Shown piece by piece: positions 47,378-64,000 of a stretch of 64,000 nt of DNA. Source of the DNA: Thermoanaerobaculia bacterium (GTDB lineage Bacteria; Acidobacteriota; Thermoanaerobaculia; Multivoradales; J023). Under the pieces are notes generated by a model. That model ran no database searches. It was not told the origin of the DNA and saw nothing but the letters and a program-made list of their open reading frames with translations. How positions within the stretch are numbered: position 1 is the stretch's first letter; every line of letters starts with the position of its first letter. A program made the position numbers and the translations under genes. The DNA lies in the NCBI GenBank assembly GCA_036397835.1, contig DASWIG010000188.1, positions 18,964 through 82,963 of the forward strand. Direction: 5' to 3'.

Positions 47378-48448
47378 TCAGGCGTTGCCGGACCACATCT
47401 CGTTCATCGCCGTCAGCAGACGCCTCTCTCCCCGGTACGGGTTGCGTCCGTGGGCGGTCAACATGTTGTCGAGGAGCAGCAGGTCGCCCTGCTGCCAGGG
47501 GAAAACGGCCGCCTCGGCCCACGACGCGCTGCGAAGGTGCCCGACGACCTCGGGCTCGATCGGCGCGCCGTCGCCGTAGAAAGTGCCGTGGGGGAGGCCC
47601 TCCTCTCCCAGTCGGGACTCGAGCGCGCCGCGCACCTCCGGATCGAGGTTCGAGGCGTGAAAGAGCACCACGTGATTGAACCAGACCTCCTCGCCCGTCT
47701 CCGGATGACGGGCCAGAGCGTCACGCACCGCGCGGGTGCGCAGGCGGTTTTCGCCACGCCATTCAAAGGTGATGCCCGAGGCCGAGCAGAAGGCTTCGAC
47801 CTCGGCGCGCCGGTCGGTCTTGAACACGGTGCGCCAGTCAATCCCCAGGCCTTCGCCATAATTGCGCATGTAGAGCACCTTGCGCCGCCGGAAGCGCTCG
47901 CGGACCTGGGGGTCGATGCGCTGAAGGATTTTGCGCGTATCGGCGATGGGCGTCTCTCCGCCTTCCTCCGCCGGAATCTCGCAGAAGAAGAATAGGTTCA
48001 TCGGCCAGGTCTTGGAGTAGGCGAGCTCGCTGTGGAGGAAAATGTCCTGATCGGCCGGATAGTCCGTGGAGGTGTAGACGTTGCCGCGGATAACGCTGCG
48101 CGGCGTCGTGGCATCTCGGTAGACCGCCAGGTCCTCTCGCGAGAAGGCCCGGACCACGGCTTCGAGCTCATCGACCCCCGACAGGTCGAAACCGCGAAAC
48201 AGCACACCGCCGACGGCTCGCTGCCAAGAGCGAGCCACGGCTCGGTTGTCGCTAAGCCAAGCGGCGAGGTCCACGCCGTCGGCGGCCGGGCGCGCCACCA
48301 CGGGCAATCGGCCGTCGGCGGAGGGTTCGAATCGCACCAGGTGCTCCGCCGCGCTCCTCGGAGCCGCGCGAGCGATCCCTGATGGGAGCTTCTTGGGAAG
48401 ACGCTTCGACGTTGTTGCCGTGCTCAATTGCGCACCTCCATGTCGCAT
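47378..48448 (-). CDS. TauD/TfdA-family Fe(II)/2-oxoglutarate-dependent dioxygenase (SyrP-like tailoring enzyme)
   Basis: 356 aa from the ATG at 48448 (overlaps the last 8 codons of the PKS-NRPS; the track ORF is over-extended to 48610 through an R/G-rich stretch). FLHSELAYSKTWPMNLFFFCEIPAEEGGETPIADTRKI and C-terminal LLLLDNMLTAHGRNPYRGERRL are typical of the TauD fold as found in NRPS clusters. Confidence 0.7.
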   Translation of the reverse strand: MRHGGAQLSTATTSKRLPKKLPSGIARAAPRSAAEHLVRFEPSADGRLPVVARPAADGVDLAAWLSDNRAVARSWQRAVGGVLFRGFDLSGVDELEAVVRAFSREDLAVYRDATTPRSVIRGNVYTSTDYPADQDIFLHSELAYSKTWPMNLFFFCEIPAEEGGETPIADTRKILQRIDPQVRERFRRRKVLYMRNYGEGLGIDWRTVFKTDRRAEVEAFCSASGITFEWRGENRLRTRAVRDALARHPETGEEVWFNHVVLFHASNLDPEVRGALESRLGEEGLPHGTFYGDGAPIEPEVVGHLRSASWAEAAVFPWQQGDLLLLDNMLTAHGRNPYRGERRLLTAMNEMWSGNA

Positions 48449-51400: not shown

Positions 51401-54400
51401 AGCGCCGCGGACTGGGCGAAGGCGTCGAGGAAGGAATTGGCGGCCGTGTGGTCGGTGAGACTGAAAGAGCCCGTGATCGCCGTGAGCGACGAGCACAGAA
51501 GAAGAAAGTCCGGCCGCTCGGCAGCGAAGACCCGCTCCAAGACCCGCGTGCCCTGCACCTTGGGAGCCAGGACCTCCGCCATGCGCGCGCGCGTCGTGAT
51601 CTCGAGGAATCCCCCCGGGAAGACGCCGGCGGCATGGAGAATGCCGTCGACGGCGCCGAACCTCCGCCTCACCTCGGCGCGGAGCTGCTCCATCGCCTCG
51701 ACGTCGGTGACGTCGGCCGCGGCAACCAGGACCTCGGCTCCGAGCTCCTGGCAGGCTCGAATCCGCCGGATTCGTCGGCTCACGGGATCGGAGGGCGGGT
51801 TTCCGGCGACGTGGCCGTCCCACGCTGAAGCTGGCGGAAACGCCGACCGGGTCACCAGCACGAGCCGCGCCTGGACGCTGCGGGCGAGCTCCTCGGCCAT
51901 CACCAGGCCCAAGCCGCCGAGGCCGCCCGTGATCAGGTAGACCCCTTGCGACTTGAGCAGAGATCTCGCTTCCCCAGCCGCCCCCGGCACCGGAACGTCG
52001 ACCCTTTCGAAGTCACGCCGCCAGCGCCGCGAGCCGCGATAGGCCACCGGCGAAATCCCGCCCATGTCGTCGAGCTCGCGGCGCACGGCGTCGAGCAGGT
52101 GCTCCTCAAGCCGGCTCTCCGGCGGTGGAAGAGCGAGCTCCAGGCACCGGCATTCGATGCCGGGGAACTCCTGAGGAATGACGGCGCAGGGACCGAGGAT
52201 GGTCGCTTTTTCGGGATGGACTTCATCGTGTCCTGTCACCTGAAAGAGATGGCTCGATAACACCCACAGGCCCAGAGCTTGCGGCGGCCGGCCTGCTGCG
52301 AGCGCCTGCGCCAGGAAGATCAGGCTGTAGAGCCCCAGGTCCAGATCCCGCTCAGGTTCCGGCGCGGCCGGTCCCAGGGTCCAAAGGTGCACGATGCGAT
52401 CGATCTCGTGGCCCTCGGCGCGCAGGTCCGTGAGGAGGTCGCTGTAGCCTCCGGGCTCACCGGGCTCGAGCGTGAAGGCGCCCGGCTCGACCTTGGCGAA
52501 GCGCTCTCCGGCCGCCACCAGCACCACCGTGTGCCCTTCGTCCTCGAGCCTCTCGGCCAGCCGCAGGCCGAAGCCCGCCTCTTCGATGAAGAGCACCCAG
52601 GTGCGCCTCGGCCCGGGCGTCGCCGGCGCCGTCAGCGCCGGAGGCTCCGGCTTCCAGGCCGGTAGGTAGAACCAGTCGTCGAGAGCGGTCTTGGCGAGCG
52701 TCGCCAGGGCCTCGTTGGGCACCGCCGTGTCCAAGCGAGACCGGGCCTCGATCCAGAACCGCTTCCGCTCGAAGGGATAGGTGGGCAGCGGCACGCGACG
52801 TCGGCGCTCCCCGGCCGCGAAGCTCGGCCAGTCGACGACCACGCCGGCGATCCACAGGCGTGCCAGCGCGTCGAGCAGGTACGCCTGGTCGGAATGCCGG
52901 TCGAAGGCGTGGCGCAAGGTGGGTACCGCCAGCCGTTCGACTCCGTCGCTCGCGGGCGCCTGCAGAGCCCAGGAGCTCAGGACCTGGCCGGGTCCGACCT
53001 CGACCAGCGCGCGAGCGGCATCCGCGCCCAACTGCGCGACCCCGGCCGCGAACCGTACGGGTCGGCACAGGTGATCGGCCCAGTAGCCCGGATCGGTCGC
53101 CTGCCCGGCCGTGATCCAGGTCCCGGTCACGTTGGAAACGAAAGGGATGCGCGGCGCCCGGAGGTTCGCTCGCGCGACGCGTTGGCGGAAGGCGGCGACG
53201 ACGGGGCTCATCATGGGGGAATGGAACGCGTGCGTGGTCTCGAGGCGGCGAGCGACGTCCCCTCGCTCTTCCAGCCGCCGGGCCAGGTCGGCGACGGCGT
53301 CCGGGGCCCCGCCCACCACGGTGACTCGCGGGGCGTTGACCGCAGTGATCGACAGGTCGGGCGTCAAGAGAGCTTCGACCTCGGCTTCGGAGATCGACAC
53401 GGCGAGCATCGCGCCGGCCGGCAGGCGGTCGATCATCTCGGCGCGGTCGGCGACCAGAGCGAGGCCGTCCTCGAGGTCGACCACCCCCGCCAGGCAGGCG
53501 GCTACGTACTCGCCGATGCTGAAGCCGAGCATCGCCGCCGGCCGCAGCCCCCACTCCACGAGCAGACGCGCGAGCGCGTACTCCACGGCGAAGAGCACCG
53601 GCTGCGCCAGCCGGGTCCTCAGCAGCTCGCCCGCCGCGCCGCCGTCGCCCTCGGCCGAGCGGCCGATCAAACGGGCGAAGTCGCTCTTGGGGGTGCTCCG
53701 CGCGATCTCGGGGGGATAGAGGACGGTCCGGAAATCGAGCCCCAACCGGGGCTCGAGCAGCTCGGCGCAGCGGTCGATCTGATCGCGGAAAACCGCCTCC
53801 TCGTCATAGAGCTCGCGGGCCATACCCACGTAGTGGTTGCCGAGGCCGGGGAAGAGGAACGCCACGGTGGCCCCCTCCGGCCGCGGCCGGCCGGTGAGCA
53901 GACGGCTCGGATGCTCGCCGCGCAGCAGCGCCGGCACGTCGTCGCCGCAGCGGCAGACCAGGGCGCGGCGGTGCTCGAAGGGCCGCCGGCCGAGCCGCAG
54001 AGTGTGGGCGACGTCCGCCAGCGCCTCCGGCGAGCTCGCCGGGCCGGCGGCGCCCGAAAGGTGCTCGGCCAGCCGGGCGGTCATCGTCGCGAGCGCGGAA
54101 GGCGTGCGGGCCGACCACACCAGGAGCTGGTGAGGCCGGCTGGCGCCGGAAGGCTCCGGAGGGGGCGCTTCCTCGAGCACCAGATGAGCATTGACGCCGC
54201 CCATGGCGAACGAGCTCACGCCCGCGCGGCGCGGCGCGGCCCCGGCGCCCTGCCACTCCCGCCCTTCCGACTGGACGTAGAAAGGGGTCGCGGCGAAGTC
54301 GACGTGGGGATTGGGCGTCGAGAAGTGGAGGCTTGGCGGCAAGAACCGGTGCTCGAGCGCGAGGACCACCTTGAGCAGGCCGGCGACGCCGGCGGCGATG

Positions 54401-55467
54401 TCGAGGTGGCCGATGTTCGTCTTGACCGAGCCGAGAGCGCAGAAGCCCGAGCGCTGCGTGGTCTCGCGGAAGACCTCGCTCAAGGCGGCGACCTCGATCT
54501 GGTCGCCCAACGGGGTGCCGGTGCCGTGGGCTTCGACGTAGGAGATGGTCTCGGCGTCGACTCCGGCCATGGCCTGCGCCATCGCCACCACCTCCGCCTG
54601 GCCGTCGACGCTGGGCGCCGTGTAGCCGGCCTTGAGAGCGCCGTCGTTGTTCATCGCCCAGCCACGGATCACCGCGTGGACGTGGTCGCCGTCTTCGAGG
54701 GCCTCGGCAAGACGCTTCAAGACGACGACGCCGACGCCGCGGCCCGAGACCGTGCCGTTGGCCTCGGCGTCGAAGGCGCGACAACGGCCGTCGGGGCTGA
54801 AGATCCCTTCGTGGGCGACGTAGCCGGATCGGCCGGGCAGGCTCAGCGCTACGCCACCGGCGAGCGCCATGTCGCACTGGTGGTTGAGCAGGCTTTGGCA
54901 GGCGAGAGCGGCGGCGACGAGCGAGGTGGAGCACGCCGTCTGAACGCTGGCGCACGGTCCCTGGAGATTCAGCTTGTAGGCGGTCAGCGAGGCGAGAAAG
55001 TCCTTGTCGTTCAGGATCCGAAGCTGGAAGGTGCTGACGGTTCGGGCCACCTCGGGATTGGCGGCGAGGTGATTGGCAAGGTAGAGGGGCGCACCCATGC
55101 CGCCGAAGACGCCGATCGAGCCGCCATAGGAGAACGGATCGTAGCCGGCGTTCTCCAGCGCCTGCCAGGCGTGCTCGAGGAAGAGGCGGTGGTGCGGATC
55201 GACGATCCGCGCCTCGGCCGGGTTGAAATCGAAGAACGCCGCGTCGAAGCTCTCGAAGCCTTCGATGACGCCGCTGGCGCGGACGTACCGGGGCTCGTTG
55301 AGCAAGAGCGGCGAGACCCCCGCCTCCTCGAGCTCCTCCCGGCGGAAGGAGGTGATCGATTCGACTCCTCCGCACAGGTTCCGCCAGTACTCGTCGAGGT
55401 CGGCGGCCCCGGGAAAGCGGGCCGACATGCCGACGATGGCGATACCTTCGATCCGCGATCCGCTCAT
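48424..55467 (-). CDS. Hybrid PKS-NRPS, 2347 aa: KS-AT(HAFH; GFSIG elbow)-psiKR-KR(Tyr position is His)-DH-like-ACP-C
   Basis: True start ATG at 55467-55465 (MSGSRIEGIAIVGMSARFPGA), overlapping the TGA of the methyltransferase gene (ATGA); the ~700 aa R/G/P-rich N-terminal extension in the track ORF 48424..57582 is a wrong-frame read-through. KS: TACSTSLVAAALACQ, EAHGTGTPLGD, KTNIGHLDIAAG. AT: FLFPGLGNHY, AMLGFSIGEY (53515-53535), HAFHSPMM. KR: GVYLITGGLGGLGL...HAAG and LTDHTAANSFLDAF (His codon CAC at 51450-51448 where the catalytic Tyr is expected). DH-like, after the KR: HPLLGECVY, LDEHRFTDGGVMPGTGYLEM, LHPALLDGATG (50665-50710). ACP NFFDLGGDSLLATRL. C: LSFNQRQIWLF...HHLVCDRFS. Stop TGA 48426-48424. 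Confidence 0.85.
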   Translation of the reverse strand: MSGSRIEGIAIVGMSARFPGAADLDEYWRNLCGGVESITSFRREELEEAGVSPLLLNEPRYVRASGVIEGFESFDAAFFDFNPAEARIVDPHHRLFLEHAWQALENAGYDPFSYGGSIGVFGGMGAPLYLANHLAANPEVARTVSTFQLRILNDKDFLASLTAYKLNLQGPCASVQTACSTSLVAAALACQSLLNHQCDMALAGGVALSLPGRSGYVAHEGIFSPDGRCRAFDAEANGTVSGRGVGVVVLKRLAEALEDGDHVHAVIRGWAMNNDGALKAGYTAPSVDGQAEVVAMAQAMAGVDAETISYVEAHGTGTPLGDQIEVAALSEVFRETTQRSGFCALGSVKTNIGHLDIAAGVAGLLKVVLALEHRFLPPSLHFSTPNPHVDFAATPFYVQSEGREWQGAGAAPRRAGVSSFAMGGVNAHLVLEEAPPPEPSGASRPHQLLVWSARTPSALATMTARLAEHLSGAAGPASSPEALADVAHTLRLGRRPFEHRRALVCRCGDDVPALLRGEHPSRLLTGRPRPEGATVAFLFPGLGNHYVGMARELYDEEAVFRDQIDRCAELLEPRLGLDFRTVLYPPEIARSTPKSDFARLIGRSAEGDGGAAGELLRTRLAQPVLFAVEYALARLLVEWGLRPAAMLGFSIGEYVAACLAGVVDLEDGLALVADRAEMIDRLPAGAMLAVSISEAEVEALLTPDLSITAVNAPRVTVVGGAPDAVADLARRLEERGDVARRLETTHAFHSPMMSPVVAAFRQRVARANLRAPRIPFVSNVTGTWITAGQATDPGYWADHLCRPVRFAAGVAQLGADAARALVEVGPGQVLSSWALQAPASDGVERLAVPTLRHAFDRHSDQAYLLDALARLWIAGVVVDWPSFAAGERRRRVPLPTYPFERKRFWIEARSRLDTAVPNEALATLAKTALDDWFYLPAWKPEPPALTAPATPGPRRTWVLFIEEAGFGLRLAERLEDEGHTVVLVAAGERFAKVEPGAFTLEPGEPGGYSDLLTDLRAEGHEIDRIVHLWTLGPAAPEPERDLDLGLYSLIFLAQALAAGRPPQALGLWVLSSHLFQVTGHDEVHPEKATILGPCAVIPQEFPGIECRCLELALPPPESRLEEHLLDAVRRELDDMGGISPVAYRGSRRWRRDFERVDVPVPGAAGEARSLLKSQGVYLITGGLGGLGLVMAEELARSVQARLVLVTRSAFPPASAWDGHVAGNPPSDPVSRRIRRIRACQELGAEVLVAAADVTDVEAMEQLRAEVRRRFGAVDGILHAAGVFPGGFLEITTRARMAEVLAPKVQGTRVLERVFAAERPDFLLLCSSLTAITGSFSLTDHTAANSFLDAFAQSAALVGGTRVMSVNWDAWQEVGQAVAAAASFGLIGEPEEILYAPDHPLLGECVYDSGERIVYRTKLTTADFWVLDEHRFTDGGVMPGTGYLEMVRAACAERLGDAEWELRQVYFLQPMVVPDAGQRWAHLTLERRDDGFAFHVDSRSAELGSEPVRHVEGRAVRRTASPIPAVDVEAIRRECSELDEAAAASADRRSGSFLFGPHWTTTSKQLRWGDSQGLLTITLAEELAAEIGVYGLHPALLDGATGFVQRRAEGLYLPYGYERLRPLRPLPRSFYSHARLRALTDEILTTDLTLLDLEGEVLVEIEGYTLRRVDPAAIGAAGATQDIGAALAHTHERAGEREEELLAAIRPREGAEVLRRLLGLYRLPPQMLISTRHLPTRLRALAEQTPSRHFDRIDQLRSQAGANHPRPDLATAMVAPRTDLEDRMASIWRDLLGLSEVGVHDNFFDLGGDSLLATRLVAFTEQHFAVRPSLRTIFEAPTIAELAAAVTELGSEDGGDTAGEIERRDGPGPFPLSFNQRQIWLFERLRPGTPTYNVPTVLRLSGRLRIDDLQSALDALTRRQDELRATFHLAGDAPAQTISDDLRCLVREVDLSALARDGREREAHRQVRAELARPFDLERGPLVRVLLLRLEGDEHVLAITLHHLVCDRFSQILFVRELVALYRARLEGRPALLPELTFRYVEYAVWQDRWMTAERVDRQLAYWKDQLTGAPAALELPADYPRSALRSFRGARHTVAFADGLGNRLKSRADAEEATLFMALLAGFYLLLYRHTGQEDLLVGSPITGRNALGTQELIGLFAAVMVLRTRLDGDPTLGQLLRRVREVALGGYAHQDLPLERLVAELDLPRDPTRAPLFQVMFIVQRDPDEPMELPGLVLKPWESARGTSKYDLTVFVFEQADGVRGAAFEYRPDLFTETRIAALARDFERCLELIAGEPELRSSSAVDRLRQESRRELASRERRRKPVPTAVAAGSRREPAPETCDMEVRN
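50300..51180 (-). other. DH-like domain located C-terminal to the KR
   Basis: HPLLG N-terminal motif, HxxxDGxxxP (HRFTDGGVMP) and HPALLDGA motifs; position confirmed at nucleotide level (50665-50710 encodes GVYGLHPALLDGAT). Confidence 0.6.
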
Positions 55468-56387
55468 CTCGCGATCCCCCGGCGCTGGGATCTCGCCGCG
55501 GCGAACAGCCGGCCGGCGCGGACACGGGTCCTGGACAAGGCCGGGCGGCCCACCGTTTCCGCCGGCCTGGACCGCGCGGCGTAGAGGTTCCAGATCGGCG
55601 AGCTCTCGTAGTGGACGTCCTGATCGGCGACGACCGTGAACCCACGCTCTTCGAGGACCTCGCGCAGACGCTCCACGCGCCCCGCGACGTCGTGGACCTC
55701 GACGACCACCTGGCGGATCTTGGGCCAGTCGGCCGGCTCGATGCCGGCCAGCACGTCCTCCTCGCTCTTTTGCACGTCGATCTTGAGCAGGTCGATCCGC
55801 TCCACTCCCTCGTCGCGAATGACCTGGGAGAGCGGCAGCAGCTCGACGTCGAAAGTCTTGTTGCGCAACCGCTCGGCGAGCAGGTCGTCGGCATGCTCGA
55901 GGACCTCCTCGACGCCCTCGACGCCTTGACGCCGCTGATTCTCGAAGATCGATCGCAGGGCCTCGCGCTCCTCGTCTGGATCGCCGTAGAACGACGACAT
56001 GCCGGAGCTCGAGAGGTAGAAGGTGAGCGTGCCCCGGCCGCTGCGGCGCGAGACGCCGCAGTGGAACAGCCGCACGGCTTCGCCATGGCCGGCGGTGTTG
56101 TGGCGCAGGATCTCGAACAGTGCCGGCGCCGGCTCGAACGCGTAGACCCGGGCACGCGGGCTGAACCGGAGGGCGAAGAGCGTGAAGAGCCCGATGTTGG
56201 CCCCCACGTCGAAGACGCACTCCGCGTCCGAGAGATCGATACCGTGGCGCACGTAGATCCTCTTGACGAAGATGTCCTCGTAGAAGTACCTCGCCTCGCT
56301 GGTGGTCTGACAGGCGATCTCCAGACCGTTGGGCAGGCTGAGCCGACGCGGGACCGAAGCGCTGATCGGGGGTAGGGGTTCCGGCAC
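55464..56387 (-). CDS. FkbM-family SAM-dependent methyltransferase, 307 aa
   Basis: GTG start at 56387 (12 nt after the upstream NRPS TAG at 56402-56400). ECVFDVGANIGLFTLFALRFSP is the FkbM-family SAM-binding signature; the TGA stop overlaps the PKS ATG. Confidence 0.75.
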   Translation of the reverse strand: MPEPLPPISASVPRRLSLPNGLEIACQTTSEARYFYEDIFVKRIYVRHGIDLSDAECVFDVGANIGLFTLFALRFSPRARVYAFEPAPALFEILRHNTAGHGEAVRLFHCGVSRRSGRGTLTFYLSSSGMSSFYGDPDEEREALRSIFENQRRQGVEGVEEVLEHADDLLAERLRNKTFDVELLPLSQVIRDEGVERIDLLKIDVQKSEEDVLAGIEPADWPKIRQVVVEVHDVAGRVERLREVLEERGFTVVADQDVHYESSPIWNLYAARSRPAETVGRPALSRTRVRAGRLFAAARSQRRGIAR

Positions 56388-56399: not shown

Positions 56400-59300
56400 C
56401 TAGCCAAGTGAGCGGGGAGCACGCCTGCCCTCGCGGCGGCGCTGCATGAATTGCTTTTGCCGGTCGAGAGCGCCCGACGCCGCGATCGCTTCGCTCTGGC
56501 GCCGCGCCCTCTCGCGGCTCTGCTCGACGTTGTCCGCGTCCGTGTGCTTGCCTTCCAGAAGCTGCGCCAGAGAAGCGATCGTGGGGCGGCGAAAGAGGTC
56601 GACGAGAGAAACCGGGCCGGTGAAGCTGCGCTGGATCTCCTGATGGACGCGGACGAGGAGCAGCGAGGTCCCACCTGCCTCGAAGAAGTTCTCGTTGCGG
56701 CCGACGCGGTCGATCTTCAGCACCTCTTTCCACACGGCGGCGAGGCGCCGCTCGGTCTCGCCGGCGGGAGGAGCGAGCTGCGCTGCGTCGCCGCGGTGCC
56801 GGAACGTTTCCTGCCGCGGCAGGGCTCGGCGGTCGACCTTGCCGCTCACGGTCAGCGGCAGGGCCTCGAGGAAGGAGAAAAAGCTCGGCACCATGTGCTC
56901 GGGAAGGTGGCGGCGCGCCAGGGCGGCGAGCGCGGCCGGATCGGGCGGGGCGGCCGCGCCGCGCGGGACGACGAAGGCCACGAGCCGGCTCTCCGGCGCG
57001 TCGCCGTCCGGGGCCACGACCACCTGGCCCACCGCGGGGTGGCGGCGCAGAACCGACTCGATCTCTCCGGGCTCGATGCGGTAGCCGTTGAGCTTGAGCT
57101 GGTGGTCCACGCGGCCGAGGAACTCGAGGCTGCCGTCTCCGCGGCGCCGCGCCAGGTCCCCGGTGGCGTAGAGCCGGCCGCCGGGCACGACGGCGAAGGC
57201 GTCGGGCAGGAAACTGGCCGCGGTCAGCGCAGGCCGCCCGCAATAACCGCGCGCCAGGCCGGCACCGGCGATCAGGAGCTGTCCCGGCACCCGGGCCGGG
57301 GTGGGCCGAAGGTGGCGATCGAGCACGTAGATCCGCGTGTTGAGGATCTCGCGGCCGATGGCGACGGGGCCGGGGCCCGACTCGACGCGGCACGTGGCCG
57401 ACCAGATCGTGGTCTCGGTCGGGCCGTACACGTTGAGGATCCGGGCCCGCGTTTTCTCCCGCAGCTCGCTCAGGAGCGCCGGCGTCAACGTCTCGCCGCC
57501 GATCAAGAGCGTTTCGAGATTCGCCAGACCGGGAGCCGCGGCGCTGTCCGCCGCCAGGATCCTGGCCATCGACGGCGTACACTGCAGGTGGGTGACCTGA
57601 TGGCGCACGAGCTGCTCGGGCAGGGAGTAGCCCGTCTCCCGGACGGCCCGCGGCACGCCGTCACGGCGCAGGTCGGCGAGCGGCTCGAGGCTTTGCAGAA
57701 CGAGGTCGGCGTCGACTCCGAAATCGATCAGGCAGGCCACCTCGTCGACGCCGATCGAGCCGAGCGTGTGGATCGTCCGCGCGCAGGTTTCCGGGGTCCC
57801 CATGAGGCCGCTCTGATCGAAGTAGCGCTCGAAGCCGTGCGCCAGGACCGCTTCCTGCTCTTCGGGAGAGTAGTCCTCTGCCCGGCCCTGGCGGCCCAGG
57901 CTGCGCATCAGGTTGCTGACCAGCCCGGCCGAGCTGCGCAAGTAATCGTAGAACGGCTCGCGCACCAGCTCGCGCACCTCGTCGAGCCGCTCGCCCACGA
58001 AGGTGTGGAGCATCAACGTCACGTGCCCCTTGCCCGGGCCCCGGCCGGCCTCGCGCCAGGCCTGGCGGTAGACGGCGATCTTGTCGGCCACGTCGGCCAC
58101 GCTCTGGCCCAGCAGGTGGGTGAGAATCCCGGCCCCCATTTCGCCGGCGAGGCGAAACGTTTCGGGGTTGCCGCTGGCGGTGATCCACACGGGCAGCTCG
58201 GCCTGGACCGGCTGCGGACGGATCGTCACCGCGACCTCGTTGCCGCCGCCGCCCGCGAGCACTACCGCTTCGCCGTGCCAGAGGCGGCGCACCGTCTCGA
58301 TCTCGCGCAGCATGAGCTGCTTGCGGTCGGCGTAGTTGGCCGGGGCGAGGACGAAGTCGTCGGCATGCCAGCCGGAAGCGAAGGAGATTCCCACTCTTCC
58401 GCCCGAGATGTTGTCGACGACCGCCCACTCTTCGGCCACCCGCACCGGGTGGTGGAGAGGCAGGACCACGCTGCCGGCCCGGATCCCGACCTTCTCGGTG
58501 ACCGCGGCCACCGCCGATCCGGTGGTCGCGGGATTGGGATAGAGACCGCCGAAGTCGTGGAAGTGGCGCTCGGGTGTCCACACCGCGGCGAAACCGAGCC
58601 GATCCGCGGCTCGCGCCCCATCGAGGAGCAACCTATAAGCGCCGCCGCGGCGGCCGCCGGCGCCGGTTTGCGGCCGGGCGCTGGCGAAGTAGAAGAGACT
58701 GAGCTCCATGGCGCGCCGCGCCGCGGGCCGGGCGGCCCGGGCCGGCGTCTCCTGAGGGATCCCGCGGTGGCCTCCGAGCGAGTGTTGGAGGACGACGGTG
58801 GCGCCTCGGGTCAGCGTCCAGAAGAGCTCCAGCACCGAGATGTCGAAGGAAACGCTGGTGGCCGCGAGCCAGGTCCCCGGCTCGTCGCGCCCAAGGCGTT
58901 CATCCATGCCGGCGAAGAAGCTCACCACCTGGCGATGGGAGATCATGACCCCCTTGGGACGGCCGGTCGAGCCCGAGGTGTAGATGACGTAGGCCAGGTT
59001 GTCGGGCCCGGCCGGAAAAGGCCCGGCCGGGGCACGCCCGCGGGCGGCGGGGGTCAGGGATTCGACCCGGATTCCTTCGACGGACGCGCCCCCGTCCGGC
59101 GTGGCCGCCGAGCCCCGCACGAGGAGCAGGGCGGCGCCGGCGTCGGCCAGCATGAGCTCCCGGCGTCGTCGCGGGTAGGCCGGGTCGAGGGGCAGGTAGG
59201 CGCCGCCCGCCTTGAGCACGCCGAGCAAACCGACGACCAGCTCGGGACCACGGTCCATCTCGATCCCGACCACGATCTCCGGACCGACGCCCAGCGACTC

Positions 59301-62300
59301 GAGGCGGCGGGCGAGACGGCCGGCGCGGCGGTCGAGCTCCTCGTAGGTCAGCCGCTGGCCCTCGAAGTGAAGCGCCGGCGCCCCCGGCGACGCCGCGGCG
59401 CGCGTCTCGAAGAGCCCGTGAACCGTCGCCGGGGCGACGCCGCGCTCCGTGTCGGTCCACTCGCCCACGAGCTGCCACCGTTCGACTCGGCTGAGCACGT
59501 CGATCGCCGACAAGCGTAAGGCCGGATCCGAGGCCACGGCCTCGACGAGGCGCGCATAGTGGCAAGCCAGATGGCGGATCGTGGTGGCGTCGAAGAGCTC
59601 CGTCTTGTACTCGACGACGCCTGCAACGCCTTGCGCGGTTCGCCGCAGCGACAGCGTGAGGTCGAAGCGGGCGATCTCGGAGTCGAGGCTCATGGCCTGC
59701 GCCGCGACGCCTGGGAGCTCGAGGTCCTCGCCGACGGCGTGCCGGAAGTTGAACATCACCTGGAAGACCGGCGTGTAGGCGGGGCTACGCCGCGGCGCTA
59801 GATGCTCGACCACCCGCTCGAGGGGCACACCGAGGCGCGTGAAGGCCGTCAATACGGTTTCGCGGACCCGCTGCAGCAGGTTGGCGAAGCTCGGGTCGCC
59901 GGAGAGCCTGGTCCGCAAAGGCACCAGGTTGAGGAACAGCCCGATCAAGCCTTCGGTCCGCTGCTGGGGACGGTGGGAGACGGGAGAGCCCACCACGACG
60001 TCGGCTTCTCCCGTGTAGCGAAGGAGAAGGACCTTGAAGGCCGCCAGCAAGGTCATGAACAGGGTTGCGCCGTGGCGCCGGCTCATCCCGGTCAGGGCGT
60101 GCTCCGCGTCCGACGCCAGCCGCACCGCGCAACTGGCGCCCGCGAAGCCCATGACCGCCGGCCGAGGCCGGTCGGTGGGCAGCCCGAGCAGGGGCGGCGC
60201 CCCGGCCAGCGACTCCCGCCACTCGGCGAGCTCGCTCTCGGCGGCCCCGCTCTCGAGCCAGCGACGCTGCCAGGCCGCGTAGTCGGCATACTGCAAGGCC
60301 GGCTCCGGCAGGGTCGTGCCCGCGGCTCGCTCGCGACCGCTCCGGTAGAGCGCGCTCAGCTCGCCGACGAAGATCCGCAACGACTCCCCGTCGCTGACCA
60401 GGTGATGGGCGGCCACCAGCAGCACGTGGTCGCTTTCCCCTAGCCTGAGCACGGTGCAGCGCAGGGCGCCGCCGCGCTCCAGGTCGAACGGCCGCCCGAT
60501 CTCCCCGCGCATCCGGCGGCGGAGCTCGTCCGGGCGCACGCCGGCGGGAAGAGCGGAGAGGTCGGCGGTCGAAAGCGGCACCGGGGCGGGAGGAGCGAAG
60601 ACCTGCACCGGCCGCCCGTCTCGAATCTCTACTCGTAGCCGGAGGACTTGGTGGCGGCGAACGATCTCGTCGACGGCCTGCCCGAGCGCCGTCACCGAGA
60701 GCTCGCCGCGAAGCCGAAAGGCGCTCGCCAGGTTGTAGAGGGGACGGCCCGCGTGGAGATTCTCGAAGAACCACAGCCGCTCCTGGGCGAATGCCAGGGG
60801 CACGCCGTCCCGGTCCGCGAGAGGCTCGAGAGCCGGGACCGAGGGGCCGGCGCTCCGGCGCGCGCCGTCGATACCGGCGGCGAGCTCGGCGATCGACGGC
60901 CGCTCGAAGACCGTTCTCAACGCCATTTCGATCCCCAGGAGATCGCGAACCCGGGTCAGCATCCTCACGGCCAGGAGCGAGTGCCCTCCGAGCTCGAAAA
61001 AGCTCTGTTCTCGCCCCACGGTGCCCCGGTCCAGGAGCTCGCACCAGATCCCGGCCAGGAGCTCCTCCGTGGCGGTGCGCGGCTCGTCGCCAGGCTCCGG
61101 TTCGAGGGCCCGCGGCAGCGGCCGCTCTTCCAGAGCTCGTCGGTCCACCTTGCCGTTGGGGGTCAGAGGCAGAGAGTCGATAGCCGCGAAGTCGTGGGGC
61201 ACCATGTAGGGGGGCAGCTCGCCGCGCGCGTGCCGCGCCAGCTCGGCGAGCAATCGCGGCGCATCCCGCCGGCCGGGACTTGTCTGGACGTGGGCCCGAA
61301 GCCGGACCTCGCCATCCTCGGCCCGGTGCGCGGTCACCACCGCTCGGCGCACCGCCGGATGGCGCTCGAGCGCCGCTTCGATCTCCGCCGGCTCGATCCG
61401 GTACCCCAGGACCTTCAACTGGTGGTCGACCCGGCCGAGGAACTCCACGGCTCCGTCGGCCAGGCGGCGACACCGGTCACCGGTGCAGTAGAGGCGCTCC
61501 CCGGGCTCGCCGACGCGCGGATCGGGCACGAATCGCTGCGCCGTCGCCGCCGGTCGCCCCAAGTAGCCGCGGCCGACCGTGGCGCCGCCGACCAGGAGCT
61601 CTCCCGCCACCCCCGCCGGAGCCGCCCGCAGCGCCGAATCGGCCACCAACGCCCGCGTCTGCGGCAGGGGGCGGCCCAACGGCACCCGGTCGGTTTCCAG
61701 CGGACCGGGCTTGTGGTCGAGCGCCCAGGTCAGGCAGCCGACCGTGGCCTCGGTGGGCCCATAGTGGTTGAAGATGCGGCATTCAGGCGCGACCGCGCGG
61801 ACGCGGTCCACACTCTCGCGACTCGCCGCCTCGCCTCCCAGCACCAGGCGCAGCCGCGGCAGCACCTCGCCGAACCGGGAGGAGCCTGCCAACGCCGCCA
61901 GGTGCGAGGGCACGATCTTTGCGCAGTCGAGACGGTGCCTCAGGTTGTACTCGGCCAGCGCCTCGGCGTCGGCCGCAATCCTCGACGGCACCACGTGCAG
62001 ACGGCCGCCGCGGCAGAGCGCGGGAAAGACCATCGTGTGACCCAGGTCGGCGGCGAACGTCGTGAGCAGGGCGTAGGCGGCGCCTTCCGGCAGGCGGAGT
62101 CGCTCGCCGACGCCCCGGACGTAGGCGGCCAACTGGCGGCGCTCGATCGCCACGCCCTTGGGTGCTCCCGAGGAGCCCGACGTGAAGATCACGTAGGCCA
62201 GGTTCTCCGGACGGACCCGAACGGACGCATCCCGCCGCTCGTCGGCCCTGGACGGCCCCGGAGATGAACCGCCGTCCAGGAACAGGACCGGCGCGGCCGC

Positions 62301-64000
62301 GGGCAGGTCCGCGGCGAGCGCCGGGGTGGTGACGACCCCTCGCGGCCCGGCGTCGGCGAGCAACCGCGCCAGCCGGTGCCGAGGCTGGCCGGGCTCCAGG
62401 GGCAGGTAGGCGGCGCCGGCCTCGAGGACGCCCAGGATCACCACCACCATCGCGGCCGAGCGCTCCAGGTACGTGGCGACGACGTCGTCCGCGCCGACGC
62501 CCATCTGGCGCAAGCGCGCCGCCAACAGACCGGAGCGGCGGCGCAGCTCTCCGTAGGTCAGGCGCTCGTCGCCTCGGACCACGGCCACGGCGTCCGGGGT
62601 ACCGGCGGCGCGCTCGTCGATCTTGGCGTCGACGCTGGTGACCGCGTCGCCGCCGACGTCCGAGGGATCCCACTGCCAGAGCGCCTGTGATTGCTCCGCG
62701 CGGCTCAGCAGGGCCAGGTCAACCAGCCGCCGCTCCGGCGCCGCGGCGCCGCTCTCGAGGATCCTCCGGAAATGGCCGGCGAGCCGCCGGAGCGTGGTGG
62801 CGAAGAAGAGGTCCGTGCTGTATTCGAACGCTCCCCGCAATCCGGCCTGAGTCTCTTCGATCGCCAGCGTGAGGTCGTACTTTGCCGTCCCGGTGCCGAC
62901 CTCGAGGGGTCGCAGCGCGAGCCCCGCCGGCCGCCACTGCTCGCTCGGAGCGTTCTGGAGCACGAGCATCGCCTGGAAGATCGGCGTGCGCCCCGGCTCT
63001 CGCTTGGGAGCGAGCTCCGCCACCAAGCGCTCGAAGGGCAGGCCCTGGTGGTCGTAGGCCTCCAGACAAGCGCCGCGGGTGGAGCTGAGAAGCTCCGCGA
63101 ACCGCAGGCGGCCCGCCGGGAACCCGCGCAGCGCCAGCACGTTGACGAAGAAGCCCACGAGGCCTTCGAGCTCGCCCGCGCCCCGGTGCGCCGCCGGCGC
63201 GCCGACGGTCACGTCGTCCTGACCGGTGTGACGGTGGAGCAGGGTCTGTAAGGCCGCCAGCAGGGTCATGAAGAGCGTCACGCCGTGGCGCCGGCCGAGC
63301 GCCGCCACCTCCGTCGTGGTCTCCCGGCCCAGGGTGAAGGCCACCGCCGCCCCCCTCCCGGAACGCCGCGCGGGCCGCGGCCGGTCGGTGGGAAGCTCGA
63401 GCGGCGGCGCGCCCTCCAGCCGGCGGCGCCAGTAGCCGATCTCGTCGTCGAGCAGCGGTCCGCGGAGCCGAAGCCGTTCGCCGTGGGCGAAGTCGGCGTA
63501 CTGGAGAGGCAGCTCGGGCAGCGCCGGCGGCGCGCCCCGGCGGGCGCCGTCGTAGAAAGCACCGAGCTCTCGGGTGAGGAGGGCACGCGACCAGGCGTCG
63601 GAAACGACGTGGTGGAGGGTCCAGAGCAGCCAATGGCGTCCGCGGCCGAGAGCGAGGATCAGCACACGCCACGCCGGCGTCCGGCCCAGGTCGAAAGGCT
63701 GGCGCGCGGCATCGCGGGCGAGGTGCGCCGCCTCGAGCTCGCGGGCGGAGCAGGGCAGCGCCCCAAGGTCGACCCTGGGAAGCTCCACCGCGAACGGCGG
63801 GGCGATGCGCTGCACCGGCACGCCGCCGACCTCGGGAAATGACGTCCTGAGCACCTCGTGACGCCCCACGACGTTTTCGAGGGCCCAGGCGAGCGCGCCG
63901 TGATCGAGCTCGCCTTCGAGCTCGACGAAGTAGGGAAGATTGTAGGACGGGTCGCGAGGATCGAGGCGCTGGAGGAACCAGAGCTGCTCTTGAGCGGACG
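56400..64000 (-). CDS. NRPS, partial (N-terminus beyond right edge): C-A-PCP-C-A(MOx-embedded)-PCP, then a ~55-aa tail
   Basis: The frame is open to the window edge: ...SAQEQLWFLQRLDPRDPSYNLPYFVELEGELDHGALAWALENVV precedes the track's GTG-encoded M at 63869. HHVVSDAWS; A LAYVIFTSGSSGAPKGV; PCP FFELGGHSLLAVRM; C LAFAQERLWFF...AAHHLVSDGESL; A LAYVIYTSGSTGRPKGV...A4 SFDIS...[insert]...A5 LNVYGPTETT; PCP NFFEAGGTSLLLVRV (~56660-56700); TAG 56402-56400. No TE domain. Confidence 0.85.
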   Translation of the reverse strand, partial: SAQEQLWFLQRLDPRDPSYNLPYFVELEGELDHGALAWALENVVGRHEVLRTSFPEVGGVPVQRIAPPFAVELPRVDLGALPCSARELEAAHLARDAARQPFDLGRTPAWRVLILALGRGRHWLLWTLHHVVSDAWSRALLTRELGAFYDGARRGAPPALPELPLQYADFAHGERLRLRGPLLDDEIGYWRRRLEGAPPLELPTDRPRPARRSGRGAAVAFTLGRETTTEVAALGRRHGVTLFMTLLAALQTLLHRHTGQDDVTVGAPAAHRGAGELEGLVGFFVNVLALRGFPAGRLRFAELLSSTRGACLEAYDHQGLPFERLVAELAPKREPGRTPIFQAMLVLQNAPSEQWRPAGLALRPLEVGTGTAKYDLTLAIEETQAGLRGAFEYSTDLFFATTLRRLAGHFRRILESGAAAPERRLVDLALLSRAEQSQALWQWDPSDVGGDAVTSVDAKIDERAAGTPDAVAVVRGDERLTYGELRRRSGLLAARLRQMGVGADDVVATYLERSAAMVVVILGVLEAGAAYLPLEPGQPRHRLARLLADAGPRGVVTTPALAADLPAAAPVLFLDGGSSPGPSRADERRDASVRVRPENLAYVIFTSGSSGAPKGVAIERRQLAAYVRGVGERLRLPEGAAYALLTTFAADLGHTMVFPALCRGGRLHVVPSRIAADAEALAEYNLRHRLDCAKIVPSHLAALAGSSRFGEVLPRLRLVLGGEAASRESVDRVRAVAPECRIFNHYGPTEATVGCLTWALDHKPGPLETDRVPLGRPLPQTRALVADSALRAAPAGVAGELLVGGATVGRGYLGRPAATAQRFVPDPRVGEPGERLYCTGDRCRRLADGAVEFLGRVDHQLKVLGYRIEPAEIEAALERHPAVRRAVVTAHRAEDGEVRLRAHVQTSPGRRDAPRLLAELARHARGELPPYMVPHDFAAIDSLPLTPNGKVDRRALEERPLPRALEPEPGDEPRTATEELLAGIWCELLDRGTVGREQSFFELGGHSLLAVRMLTRVRDLLGIEMALRTVFERPSIAELAAGIDGARRSAGPSVPALEPLADRDGVPLAFAQERLWFFENLHAGRPLYNLASAFRLRGELSVTALGQAVDEIVRRHQVLRLRVEIRDGRPVQVFAPPAPVPLSTADLSALPAGVRPDELRRRMRGEIGRPFDLERGGALRCTVLRLGESDHVLLVAAHHLVSDGESLRIFVGELSALYRSGRERAAGTTLPEPALQYADYAAWQRRWLESGAAESELAEWRESLAGAPPLLGLPTDRPRPAVMGFAGASCAVRLASDAEHALTGMSRRHGATLFMTLLAAFKVLLLRYTGEADVVVGSPVSHRPQQRTEGLIGLFLNLVPLRTRLSGDPSFANLLQRVRETVLTAFTRLGVPLERVVEHLAPRRSPAYTPVFQVMFNFRHAVGEDLELPGVAAQAMSLDSEIARFDLTLSLRRTAQGVAGVVEYKTELFDATTIRHLACHYARLVEAVASDPALRLSAIDVLSRVERWQLVGEWTDTERGVAPATVHGLFETRAAASPGAPALHFEGQRLTYEELDRRAGRLARRLESLGVGPEIVVGIEMDRGPELVVGLLGVLKAGGAYLPLDPAYPRRRRELMLADAGAALLLVRGSAATPDGGASVEGIRVESLTPAARGRAPAGPFPAGPDNLAYVIYTSGSTGRPKGVMISHRQVVSFFAGMDERLGRDEPGTWLAATSVSFDISVLELFWTLTRGATVVLQHSLGGHRGIPQETPARAARPAARRAMELSLFYFASARPQTGAGGRRGGAYRLLLDGARAADRLGFAAVWTPERHFHDFGGLYPNPATTGSAVAAVTEKVGIRAGSVVLPLHHPVRVAEEWAVVDNISGGRVGISFASGWHADDFVLAPANYADRKQLMLREIETVRRLWHGEAVVLAGGGGNEVAVTIRPQPVQAELPVWITASGNPETFRLAGEMGAGILTHLLGQSVADVADKIAVYRQAWREAGRGPGKGHVTLMLHTFVGERLDEVRELVREPFYDYLRSSAGLVSNLMRSLGRQGRAEDYSPEEQEAVLAHGFERYFDQSGLMGTPETCARTIHTLGSIGVDEVACLIDFGVDADLVLQSLEPLADLRRDGVPRAVRETGYSLPEQLVRHQVTHLQCTPSMARILAADSAAAPGLANLETLLIGGETLTPALLSELREKTRARILNVYGPTETTIWSATCRVESGPGPVAIGREILNTRIYVLDRHLRPTPARVPGQLLIAGAGLARGYCGRPALTAASFLPDAFAVVPGGRLYATGDLARRRGDGSLEFLGRVDHQLKLNGYRIEPGEIESVLRRHPAVGQVVVAPDGDAPESRLVAFVVPRGAAAPPDPAALAALARRHLPEHMVPSFFSFLEALPLTVSGKVDRRALPRQETFRHRGDAAQLAPPAGETERRLAAVWKEVLKIDRVGRNENFFEAGGTSLLLVRVHQEIQRSFTGPVSLVDLFRRPTIASLAQLLEGKHTDADNVEQSRERARRQSEAIAASGALDRQKQFMQRRREGRRAPRSLG
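57650..58709 (-). other. Luciferase-like monooxygenase (LLM/MOx) domain inserted between A-domain cores A4 and A5
   Basis: ~350-aa insertion beginning MELSLFYFASARPQTG (ATG at 58709) and ending ...VDADLVLQSLEPLADLRRDG; the internal motifs GISFASGWHADDFV and AVWTPERHF are typical of the bacterial-luciferase/LLM fold. Confidence 0.7.

What the first reader, a model, noticed from the sequence alone, without database searches (positions are those of the whole stretch)
57650..58709. Luciferase-like monooxygenase embedded in the A domain of a module that is NOT terminal in gene order
Seen in sequence: the second A domain of the 56400..64000 NRPS is interrupted between core A4 (ATSVSFDISVLELFW) and A5 (LNVYGPTETT) by a ~350-aa LLM fold (MELSLFYFAS ... 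GISFASGWHADDFV ... VDADLVLQSLEPL). Established: the characterised A-embedded MOx modules (MtaG/MelG-type) are the last module, carry a TE, hydroxylate C-alpha of PCP-bound Gly, and thereby release the upstream chain as a primary amide. Here the module ends in PCP plus a ~55-aa tail with no TE, and is followed in the same operon by an MT, a PKS and more than 10 further NRPS modules. Inference, either: (a) the chain is cleaved or released here and the window actually encodes two assembly lines, one of which ends in a terminal amide; or (b) the MOx installs an alpha-hydroxy or alpha-keto residue that is retained (and possibly O-methylated by the adjacent FkbM enzyme), which would be new chemistry for this domain type.
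Basis: partly seen in the sequence, partly recalled or inferred. Interest (0 to 1): 0.7.

Follow-up and report, generated by a model that had tools for sequence, protein, structure and literature searches.

The report
Mid-line glycine-hydroxylating NRPS module
A glycine-loading module of a giant peptide/polyketide assembly line carries a built-in flavin oxygenase, but unlike the textbook chain-releasing cases it sits third in a line of about fifteen modules. This mid-line placement turns out to be common in uncultured bacteria and is almost unstudied, and it most likely makes an oxygenated glycine unit that is carried forward rather than cutting the chain.

Summary
A ~385-aa insert (window 57645..58802) splits a glycine-specific A domain between cores A4 and A5, and its core is a MupA/Atu3671-family FMN monooxygenase (TIGR04020, 506 bits). 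The protein stops 50 aa after the PCP, with no TE. An FkbM methyltransferase gene and a KS-AT-KR-DH-ACP-C gene follow, both translationally coupled.

The source contig shows a 3617-aa NRPS, C-A(Asp)-PCP-C-A(Asp)-PCP-C-A(Gly,MOx)-PCP. The operon's only detected TE lies about 1.8 kb beyond the left edge.

The "MOx module = terminal + TE" premise reflects which cases have been studied. Among the 80 closest genomic relatives, elongation-type modules are followed by a KS (14), a C domain (10) or a fused TE (2). TE-type and mid-line oxygenases are equally similar to this one (60-66%).

Retention has a published precedent (solanimycin SolF). Relatives fuse an FkbM O-methyltransferase into the same A domain, which implies α-methoxyglycine there. 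The window's stand-alone MT always accompanies such modules (12/12 contexts) but resembles PKS O-MT domains more, so its target is unresolved.

Best reading: in-line α-hydroxylation with the unit passed to the KS. Cleavage with re-priming is not excluded. This is a new variant of a known kind.

The parts
56400..64000 (-). 3' part (2533 codons) of a 3617-aa NRPS gene, C-A(Asp)-PCP-C-A(Asp)-PCP-C-A(Gly,MOx)-PCP. It runs off the right edge of the window. The stop codon TAG is at 56400-56402.
59469..60809 (-). Condensation domain of the MOx module, with an intact HHLVSDG motif.
   Evidence: Pfam PF00668 stretch aa 1021-1467; motif
58803..59441 (-). N-terminal part of the glycine A domain (cores A1-A4, ending ...SFDISVLELFWTLTRG).
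57645..58802 (-). Insert of about 385 aa between A4 and A5. It is an FMN-dependent luciferase-like monooxygenase (MOx) with short linkers; the LLM core is at 57666..58703.
   Evidence: PF00296 E 1.1e-54; TIGR04020 506 bits; PDB 6KET PuwE E 1.9e-116; A1/A2 alignment
56820..57644 (-). C-terminal part of the glycine A domain (A5 NVYGPTETT to A10 GKVDRR). The full code is DILQLGVIWK.
56560..56760 (-). PCP of the MOx module (approximate limits). The phosphopantetheine serine in GGTSL is at 56664-56666.
56403..56555 (-). C-terminal tail of about 50 aa, basic (ERARRQ...QRRREGRR). It is of the same class as tails that precede a KS gene in relatives and at the gene 9 to KS junction of this cluster.
55464..56387 (-). 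Stand-alone FkbM-family methyltransferase ('S-type', 307 aa). Its GTG start lies 12 nt after the NRPS stop, behind an AGAGGA Shine-Dalgarno sequence. Its stop overlaps the PKS ATG. The SAM motif is DVGANIG.
   Evidence: PF05050; TIGR01444
48424..55467 (-). PKS/NRPS gene KS-AT-psiKR-KR-DH-ACP-C that receives from the MOx module. The KS has Cys-His-His. The AT motifs are GFSIGE and HAFH. The KR has His in place of the catalytic Tyr.

Best explanation
This is an in-line (module 3) glycine elongation module. Its C domain joins the upstream Asp-Asp chain to PCP-bound glycine. The FMN-dependent monooxygenase embedded between A4 and A5 hydroxylates the glycyl C-alpha while it is on the PCP. The resulting alpha-oxygenated unit is not released. 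It is handed to the condensing KS of the next gene, extended by malonate, and carried through about twelve more NRPS modules and one more PKS module to the single terminal TE.

Shown here:
- domain identities, the insertion site and the Gly specificity code
- absence of a TE on this protein
- operon structure and the single distal TE
- conservation of the A(MOx)-PCP then KS/C arrangement in relatives

Inferred, with my estimate of likelihood:
- C-alpha hydroxylation on the PCP: about 0.85, by family analogy
- transfer to the KS: about 0.8
- survival of the N-C-alpha bond as a carbinolamide or N,O-acetal: about 0.55
- O-methylation of the new hydroxyl by the adjacent FkbM enzyme: about 0.35. 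The alternative is that this MT serves the downstream PKS module.
For: - Identity and site of the insert, and the Gly code.
- The C domain of the module has an intact HHxxxDG motif and the PCP serine is present.
- The only detected TE is at the end of the last gene, KS-AT-ACP-C-A-PCP-C-A-PCP-TE. Gene 1 is 3617 aa with three modules.
- The downstream KS has Cys180/His314/His351 and no loading module.
- Tail class matches the partner. Basic RRR tails precede KS genes, including this cluster's canonical PCP-to-KS junction, and acidic COM-like tails precede trans C domains.
- Among relatives, elongation-type A(MOx)-PCP is followed by KS in 14, C in 10 and TE in 2. In the large database, 0 of 15 PF00296-containing NRPSs list a TE.
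- The window's MOx is sister to L067 and close to L069. Both carry an FkbM O-MT domain fused between A8 and A9 of the same Gly A domain. The same fusion occurs in L087, L088, L090, L091, L093 and L094.
- In NRPS modules without MOx, this MT family sits in Ser, Thr, Asp, Glu and Tyr A domains. In a Gly host the only oxygen available is the one the MOx installs. That implies alpha-methoxyglycine, and therefore retention, in this clade.
- Precedents for retention: SolF in solanimycin B and Sky39 in skyllamycin (PMC10204066, PMC9321520). PuwE and microginin-type LLM domains give retained 2-OH groups (PMC4219810, PMC9594780).
Against: - No chemistry was observed.
- The characterised A4-A5 MOx modules (MtaG/MelG, and by proposal FshJ) cleave the chain (PMC11411415, PMC11342130, PMC13548996). 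N-acyl hemiaminals derived from glycine can be labile, as in hangtaimycin (PMC10624959).
- The window's module lacks the embedded MT that would lock the hemiaminal.
- TE-type and mid-line MOx domains are indistinguishable by sequence: 60-62% versus 62-66% identity to the window, with 72 near-invariant columns shared. The domain itself therefore does not reveal the fate of the chain.
- The stand-alone MT is 40-43% identical to the embedded MOx-module MTs but up to 56% identical to PKS-embedded MTs.
- In L089 and L095 the MT sits at the end of an FkbK/J/I/H-like cassette.
- The first 14 kb of the source contig, which would hold the loading module and any type II TE, could not be read.
Confidence: 0.5

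Rival explanations
1. Programmed scission with re-priming. The MOx hydroxylates Asp-Asp-Gly-S-PCP and the carbinolamide collapses, as in MtaG. The upstream chain leaves as a primary amide. The remaining glyoxylyl-S-PCP is not hydrolysed, because there is no TE, and instead serves as starter for the downstream KS. One operon would then make two products.
For: - The established MtaG/MelG mechanism uses the same insertion site and the same Gly code (PMC11411415, PMC11342130).
- TE-type MOx domains (L057, L028) are interspersed with mid-line ones and are equally similar to the window's.
- The window's module lacks the embedded MT that would stabilise the hemiaminal.
- Two relatives (the P0213 context and L093) end with C-A(MOx+MT)-PCP plus an MT, with neither a TE nor a downstream megasynthase.
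Against: - Methyltransferases fused into the MOx Gly A domain in the nearest relatives make little sense if the glycine remnant is waste or if the chain is cut.
- The upstream modules are kept in the same tightly coupled operon, with a KS-type docking tail.
- Solanimycin shows that retention happens with a mid-line Gly monooxygenase module (PMC10204066).
- No precedent was found for a glyoxylyl starter (literature searches).
Confidence: 0.2
2. The alpha-hydroxyglycine is retained, but the adjacent FkbM enzyme has nothing to do with it. The MT would be a detached PKS-type O-methyltransferase. It would methylate the beta-oxygen (enol or hydroxyl) of the intermediate on the next PKS module, or an alpha-hydroxyacyl extender unit. 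The hemiaminal would stay free.
For: - In 1.84 billion representatives, the MT's closest relatives include KS-AT-MT, KS-AT-KR-MT and MT-AT proteins at up to 56% identity, against 40-43% for MTs embedded in MOx A domains.
- The MT gene overlaps, or is directly followed by, the KS gene in 9 of 12 contexts.
- The PKS KR has His for the catalytic Tyr, and the DH motifs are atypical.
- L089 and L095 place the MT after 3HCDH, ACP, acyl-CoA dehydrogenase and HAD (FkbK/J/I/H-like) genes.
- Most clusters have both MT types, which suggests non-redundant targets.
Against: - The stand-alone MT follows a C-A(MOx)-PCP gene in 12 of 12 contexts. These include three with no PKS after it: L069, L093 and the P0213 context.
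- No FkbH/I/J/K genes are seen in the window or the readable flanks.
- The AT carries the malonyl-type HAFH motif.
Confidence: 0.35
3. The gene order is not collinear. The MOx module would really act last, MtaG-like, releasing the whole product as an amide. Glyoxylate would be removed by a type II TE or by spontaneous hydrolysis.
For: - Non-collinear clusters exist (general knowledge).
- Two relatives show apparently terminal MOx modules without a TE.
Against: - The last gene ends in PCP-TE.
- C|A splits and docking-tail classes fit collinear order.
- The KS gene immediately downstream has no other donor or loading module.
- The same NRPS-MT-KS order recurs in independent lineages.
Confidence: 0.03

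Closest known systems
MtaG / MelG (myxothiazol, melithiazol) C-A(MOx)-PCP-TE terminal amide-forming modules, and the proposed FshJ (fischerazole)
   Same: The LLM-type monooxygenase is inserted between A4 and A5 of a glycine-specific A domain. C-alpha hydroxylation of PCP-bound glycine is expected (PMC11411415, PMC10204066, PMC13548996).
   Different: The window's module is not the last module and has no TE. It is followed by an MT gene, a KS and about 13 more modules, and the TE is at the far end of the operon.
SolF of solanimycin (Dickeya solani): mid-line Gly module with an embedded flavin monooxygenase
   Same: A Gly A domain with an embedded monooxygenase sits in the middle of a hybrid PKS/NRPS line. 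Alpha-hydroxyglycine is retained and the chain is extended further (PMC10204066).
   Different: In SolF the oxygenase is inserted between a8 and a9, not a4 and a5 (PMC10204066). No FkbM MT is reported there. The solanimycin structure rests on MS only.
PuwE monooxygenase domain (PDB 6KET; puwainaphycin) and other TIGR04020 members (MupA, OnnC, microginin LLM domain)
   Same: This is the same family, and PuwE is the closest solved structure (E 1.9e-116). These enzymes hydroxylate alpha to a carrier-protein thioester and the hydroxyl is retained (PMC4219810, PMC8739492, PMC9594780).
   Different: They sit between PKS and NRPS modules or stand alone, not inside an A domain, and the substrate is an acyl or beta-aminoacyl chain rather than N-acyl-glycine.
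Sky39 (skyllamycin) and EpcG: stand-alone glycine alpha-hydroxylases
   Same: They produce a retained alpha-hydroxyglycine in a non-ribosomal peptide (PMC9321520, PMC10204066).
   Different: They are stand-alone enzymes and the product is stabilised in a macrocycle. Homology to the window's domain was not tested.
HtmB1 module-16 FkbM-type O-MT domain (hangtaimycin) and FkbM of FK506
   Same: The MT belongs to the FkbM family with the DxGxNxG SAM motif and acts as an assembly-line O-methyltransferase (PMC10624959).
   Different: In the window the MT is a separate gene between the NRPS and the PKS. Its target is unknown.

Membership tests
MtaG/MelG-type terminal amidating module | Luciferase-like monooxygenase inserted between A-domain cores A4 and A5 | tested here: met
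MtaG/MelG-type terminal amidating module | Glycine-specific host A domain | tested here: met
   The code is DILQLGVIWK by alignment to GrsA. The GrsA sequence was recalled from memory and validated by reproducing DAWTIAAICK.
MtaG/MelG-type terminal amidating module | C-terminal thioesterase fused after the PCP | tested here: not met
   The ORF stops 50 aa after the PCP and has no PF00975 hit.
MtaG/MelG-type terminal amidating module | Last module of the assembly line | tested here: not met
   It is module 3 of about 15 by gene order. The distal TE is at the end of the last gene.
MtaG/MelG-type terminal amidating module | Product released as a primary amide | not testable with these tools
   This needs metabolite analysis.
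TIGR04020 MupA/Atu3671 FMN-dependent LLM (PF00296) | Full-length HMM match above the curated cutoff | tested here: met
   506.2 bits against a cutoff of 244.45, profile positions 1-341 of 341. PF00296 scores 186 bits against 27.9.
TIGR04020 MupA/Atu3671 FMN-dependent LLM (PF00296) | FMN-dependent oxygenase activity | not testable with these tools
   72 columns are at least 97% conserved across 77 A-embedded homologues, including the window. This suggests the domain is intact.
SolF-type mid-line Gly monooxygenase module (retained alpha-hydroxyglycine) | Gly A domain with an embedded flavin monooxygenase, followed by further elongation modules | tested here: met
SolF-type mid-line Gly monooxygenase module (retained alpha-hydroxyglycine) | Insertion between a8 and a9 | tested here: not met
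   Here the insertion is between A4 and A5. The SolF site is described in PMC10204066.
SolF-type mid-line Gly monooxygenase module (retained alpha-hydroxyglycine) | Alpha-hydroxyglycine present in the final product | not testable with these tools
   The product of this metagenomic cluster is unknown.
FkbM-family methyltransferase | PF05050/TIGR01444 match and the DxGxNxG SAM motif | tested here: met
   PF05050 E 2.5e-20; TIGR01444 105 bits against 37.7; DVGANIG motif.
Methoxymalonyl-ACP pathway O-MT (FkbG role) | Clustered with FkbH, FkbI, FkbJ and FkbK homologues | tested here: not met
   None are found in the window or the readable flanks. They are present in relatives L089 and L095.

The most novel reading that the evidence does not exclude
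The MOx module is a programmed scission point. It would release the Asp-Asp-containing upstream chain as a primary amide and leave a glyoxylyl thioester, which the downstream KS uses as starter. One collinear operon with a single TE would then make two unrelated products. The recurrent A(MOx)-PCP then KS/C junctions seen across many phyla would be a general 'cut-and-reprime' device.
Probability: 0.15. Interest if true: 0.85.

Novelty: new variant of a known kind. Interest (0 to 1): 0.6.

Why it matters
A-embedded monooxygenase modules are taught as chain terminators that make primary amides. This case and the survey around it suggest that view comes from the few characterised examples. In genomes, most close relatives sit mid-line and feed a KS or a C domain.

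If the hydroxylated glycine is carried on, and O-methylated in the relatives that have a fused FkbM domain, these lines make N-acyl hemiaminal or N,O-acetal (alpha-methoxyglycine) units. To my knowledge that motif is associated with potent trans-AT polyketides of the pederin type. Here it would be built by a compact, portable NRPS device in uncultured Acidobacteriota-like bacteria.

The result also affects automated structure prediction. Genome-mining rules that read 'A-MOx' as 'terminal amide' would mispredict most of these clusters.

The doubly interrupted A domain (A4-[LLM]-A5 ... A8-[FkbM]-A9) is not mentioned in the 2020 catalogue of interrupted A domains. That paper does not contain the word FkbM.

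Tried and rejected
- An exact-match scan of metagenome contigs with 50 nt from the right edge found nothing. The source contig was found instead through the MT protein.
- I tried to retrieve the full 3617-aa NRPS as a database protein, in order to walk 10 kb upstream. The search listed nothing longer than about 2570 aa and no self hit. The loading end of the line, source-contig positions 1-14 kb, therefore stayed unread.
- A metagenome scan for MT relatives gave a single locus, L094.
- The idea that the MT is a MelK-like ester-forming enzyme was rejected. MelK is described alongside a leucine-carboxyl-MT-type (LCM) methyltransferase, not an FkbM-type one (PMC12210259).
- The idea that the MT targets a conserved upstream residue was rejected. 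The residue preceding the MOx module differs among relatives.
- The idea that the cluster is the myxoglucamide (mxg) cluster was rejected. That cluster has a different architecture, and its monooxygenase is fused to a C domain.
- A fixed-offset extraction of Stachelhaus position 278 gave a wrong residue because of a loop indel. It was replaced by alignment to GrsA.
- A PDB sequence search with the MT found nothing.
- No structure prediction was run. It would not discriminate between the rival explanations.
Full report
**1. The observation**

The window is about 70% G+C and is almost entirely filled by minus-strand megasynthase genes. The ORF ending at 56400 has no stop codon up to the right edge.

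Pfam finds C-A-PCP-C-A-PCP. PF00296 (Bac_luciferase) lies at aa 1721-2042 (E 1.1e-54), inside a split AMP-binding domain. NCBIfam assigns the insert full-length to TIGR04020, the 'MupA/Atu3671 family FMN-dependent luciferase-like monooxygenase', at 506 bits against a cutoff of 244. The closest solved structure is PuwE, 6KET (E 1.9e-116).

I aligned this A domain with the uninterrupted A domain of the same protein. This shows one insertion of about 385 aa after ...SFDISVLELFWTLTRG (A4) and before the stretch leading to NVYGPTETT (A5). That corresponds to window 57645..58802.

The specificity code was read through an alignment to GrsA. The GrsA sequence was recalled from memory and checked by reproducing DAWTIAAICK. 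The code is DILQLGVIWK, the glycine type. The protein ends 50 aa after the PCP with no TE.

**2. The neighbourhood and the whole line**

The MT gene (PF05050, TIGR01444) starts at a GTG 12 nt after the NRPS stop. Its own stop overlaps the ATG of a KS-AT-KR-DH-ACP-C gene.

The MT protein occurs with 100% identity on a 99,880-nt ENA contig. The window is positions 17329-81328 of that contig, reversed. On that contig the MOx NRPS is 3617 aa. It reads C-A(Asp)-PCP-C-A(Asp)-PCP-C-A(Gly,MOx)-PCP, with both upstream codes DLTKVGHVGK.

Downstream lie these genes, in order:
- the PKS gene
- a TauD hydroxylase
- an I-like-A-PCP gene
- three large NRPS genes, one with Cy and Ox domains
- a split C|A pair
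- a 3453-aa gene, KS-AT-ACP-C-A-PCP-C-A-PCP-TE

The TE of that last gene lies about 1.8 kb beyond the left edge of the window. By gene order the MOx module is therefore module 3 of a line with one distal TE.

**3. Relatives**

A scan of 185,579 species-representative genomes with A(MOx)-PCP found at least 562 relatives. The best 80 are 44-56% identical to the query. All 76 analysable ones have the insert between A4 and A5 and a DILQxGxxWK (Gly) code.

They fall into two architectures.

(i) About 40 loci have Formyl_trans_N-A(MOx)-PCP loading proteins.
- Twenty of these have a KS directly downstream.
- L006, the one checked with Pfam, reads KS-AT-KR-DH-ACP-TE.
- These loci often lie near PPTase and polysaccharide genes.

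(ii) About 33 loci have elongation modules, C-A(MOx)-PCP.
- Among these, the next domain is a KS in 14, a C domain in 10 (5 in cis and 5 in trans), a fused TE in 2 (L057, L028) and something else in 3.
- L057 is a clean MtaG-like TubC_N-C-A(MOx)-PCP-TE.

In an NJ tree of the MOx domains, the TE-type domains are scattered among KS- and C-type ones. The window's domain is 62.0% and 60.4% identical to the two TE-type domains, against 62-66% to mid-line ones. Seventy-two columns are at least 97% conserved in all 77 domains. The oxygenase sequence therefore does not reveal what happens to the chain.

In the 5.8-billion-protein database, none of the 15 closest PF00296-containing NRPSs lists a TE.

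C-terminal tails track the downstream partner. They are basic (DRA..RR...RRR) before KS genes, like this cluster's own gene-9-to-KS junction. They are acidic and COM-like before trans C domains. The window's tail is basic. The KS that follows has the full Cys-His-His triad and no loading module.

**4. The methyltransferases**

The nearest relatives of the window's MOx carry an FkbM domain fused between A8 and A9 of the same Gly A domain. I call this the E-type. It is seen in L063, L067 and L069, and also in L087, L088, L090, L091, L093 and L094.

The window's stand-alone MT, which I call S-type, is 50-63% identical to other stand-alone MTs. All twelve contexts examined place it directly or closely downstream of a gene ending in C-A(MOx)[±E-type MT]-PCP:
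- Window, L067, L087, L088, L089, L090, L091, L094 and L095: a KS gene follows.
- L069: a C-A gene follows.
- L093 and the P0213 context: no megasynthase follows.

(Sources.)

In NRPS modules without MOx, this MT family sits in A domains with Ser, Thr, Asp, Glu and Tyr codes, so it is plausibly a side-chain O-methyltransferase. In a Gly host the only oxygen available is the one the MOx installs. The E-type fusion therefore argues for alpha-methoxyglycine, and hence retention, in this clade.

The S-type MT is a different matter:
- It is only 40-43% identical to E-type domains.
- It is up to 56% identical to MT domains in KS-AT-MT, KS-AT-KR-MT and MT-AT proteins.
- It usually co-occurs with the E-type.
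- In L089 and L095 it closes an FkbK/J/I/H-like cassette.

Its target in the window could be the Gly alpha-OH, a PKS beta-oxygen or something else. This is unresolved. No FkbH-K genes are seen in the readable parts of this cluster, and the AT has the malonyl-type HAFH motif.

**5. Literature**

- MtaG and MelG (C-A-MOx-A-T-TE) hydroxylate glycine C-alpha. The carbinolamide collapses to a terminal amide and the TE removes glyoxylate (PMC11411415, PMC11342130, 10.1101/2024.10.28.620694). FshJ is proposed to do the same (PMC13548996).
- Solanimycin SolF is a mid-line Gly module with an embedded flavin monooxygenase, inserted between a8 and a9. Its alpha-hydroxyglycine is retained and extended. 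Skyllamycin uses the stand-alone Sky39 (PMC10204066, PMC9321520).
- Other TIGR04020-type domains give retained alpha-hydroxyls: PuwE (PMC4219810), the microginin domain (PMC9594780), and proposed hydroxylases such as OnnC (PMC8739492).
- An FMN monooxygenase installs an alpha-OH/alpha-keto group in myxoglucamides (PMC13638107).
- An FkbM-type O-MT domain inside an NRPS module is known from hangtaimycin. In that compound a glycine-derived hemiaminal is unstable (PMC10624959).
- I found no description of A4-A5 MOx modules feeding a KS, of the NRPS-FkbM-KS cassette, or of LLM+FkbM doubly interrupted A domains. The 2020 catalogue of interrupted A domains does not mention FkbM.

**6. Verdict**

The best-supported mechanism is in-line C-alpha hydroxylation of PCP-bound Asp-Asp-Gly, with hand-over of the oxygenated unit to the KS and continuation to the single distal TE (confidence about 0.5).

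Scission with glyoxylyl re-priming remains possible (about 0.2) and would be the more remarkable outcome. Whether the adjacent MT caps the new hydroxyl (about 0.35) or serves the PKS module is open.

The module fails two defining features of the MtaG/MelG type, the TE and the terminal position. It should not be filed there, although the oxygenase chemistry is probably the same. I rate it a new variant of a known kind and moderately interesting. The main value is showing that the mid-line arrangement is the common one and that it is experimentally tractable in several cultured relatives.

Noticed in passing
window 48424..55467 (-), KR at about 51352..51945: The PKS module after the MOx module has the order KS-AT-psiKR-KR-DH-ACP-C, with the DH after the KR. 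The AT active site is GFSIGE instead of GHSxG, with HAFH. The KR catalytic Tyr is replaced by His ('DHTAAN'). The His is conserved in L012, L067, L087-L091 and L095, but Tyr is kept in the formyl-loading group. The canonical DH motifs HxxxGxxxxP and DxxxQ/H were not matched.
   Followed up: partly
L063, L067, L069, L087, L088, L090, L091, L093, L094; proteins P0370, P0374, P0392: These carry doubly interrupted glycine A domains: A4-[luciferase-like monooxygenase]-A5 ... A8-[FkbM methyltransferase]-A9-PCP. This architecture is not named in the 2020 survey of interrupted A domains.
   Followed up: partly
L004, L006, L011, L017, L021, L029-L031, L038, L042, L043, L045, L048, L051, L052, L054, L056, L075 and others: About half of the 80 closest relatives are a different, widespread two-gene unit: Formyl_trans_N-A(Gly,MOx)-PCP plus KS-AT-KR-DH-ACP-TE. 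They often sit next to PPTase, Wzz, GT2 and polysaccharide-export genes. They occur in Proteobacteria, Myxococcota, Planctomycetota, Verrucomicrobiota and other phyla. The product is unknown.
   Followed up: partly
L089 4602-9002; L095 4581-9011; partial in L090, L091: A 3-hydroxyacyl-CoA dehydrogenase, an 86-aa ACP, an acyl-CoA dehydrogenase and a HAD (FkbH-like) gene lie between the MOx NRPS and the FkbM MT. This resembles a methoxymalonyl-ACP cassette with an FkbM-family MT in the FkbG position. The AT of L089 has Gly for the active-site Ser (GYGVGE).
   Followed up: partly
window 44156..47362 (-) and 47378..48448 (-): The NRPS gene starts with a C-like domain lacking HHxxxDG (LTALQADS) and sits next to a stand-alone TauD-family dioxygenase. 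This looks like an interface-domain and beta-hydroxylase pair. The preceding gene ends in a C domain (HHLVCDR) split from its A domain.
   Followed up: partly
window 31825..32895 (+): The only plus-strand gene is a family-2 glycosyltransferase (PF13704, E 2.8e-13) wedged between two NRPS genes. G+C dips locally to about 0.63.
   Followed up: no
window 18374..31834 (-) and 1..8565 (-): Cy-type DxxxxDxxS motifs (aa 1694 and 2779 of the 4486-aa protein; aa 1166 of the last gene) and a nitroreductase-type Ox domain (aa 3651-3828) are present. The product probably contains thiazole or oxazole rings.
   Followed up: no
window 60.8-64.0 kb and L081 1-2389: Both A domains upstream of the MOx module have the identical Asp-type code DLTKVGHVGK. 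Asp-coded A domains are also frequent hosts of embedded FkbM MT domains elsewhere.
   Followed up: partly
proteins P0361-P0376: Many NRPS proteins carry tandem FkbM MT domains in one module (C-A-MT-MT-...).
   Followed up: no
L092 (Kitasatospora sp. NBC_00374, CP107964.1 1563117-1590580): A cultured actinomycete has a mid-line C-A(MOx)-PCP-C-A NRPS. It sits beside a PKS, an Asp/Arg hydroxylase, a type III PKS with three enoyl-CoA hydratase genes (Dpg-like), an aminotransferase and MbtH. It is a tractable system for testing the fate of the hydroxyglycine.
   Followed up: no
P0213 context (JGI 3300045391) and L093: In two clusters, FAAL-...-NRPS, then C-A(MOx+FkbM)-PCP, then a stand-alone FkbM gene is followed by no TE, KS or C gene. 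One has a CN_hydrolase gene nearby and the other has a transposase. These are either terminal MOx modules without a TE or disrupted clusters.
   Followed up: no
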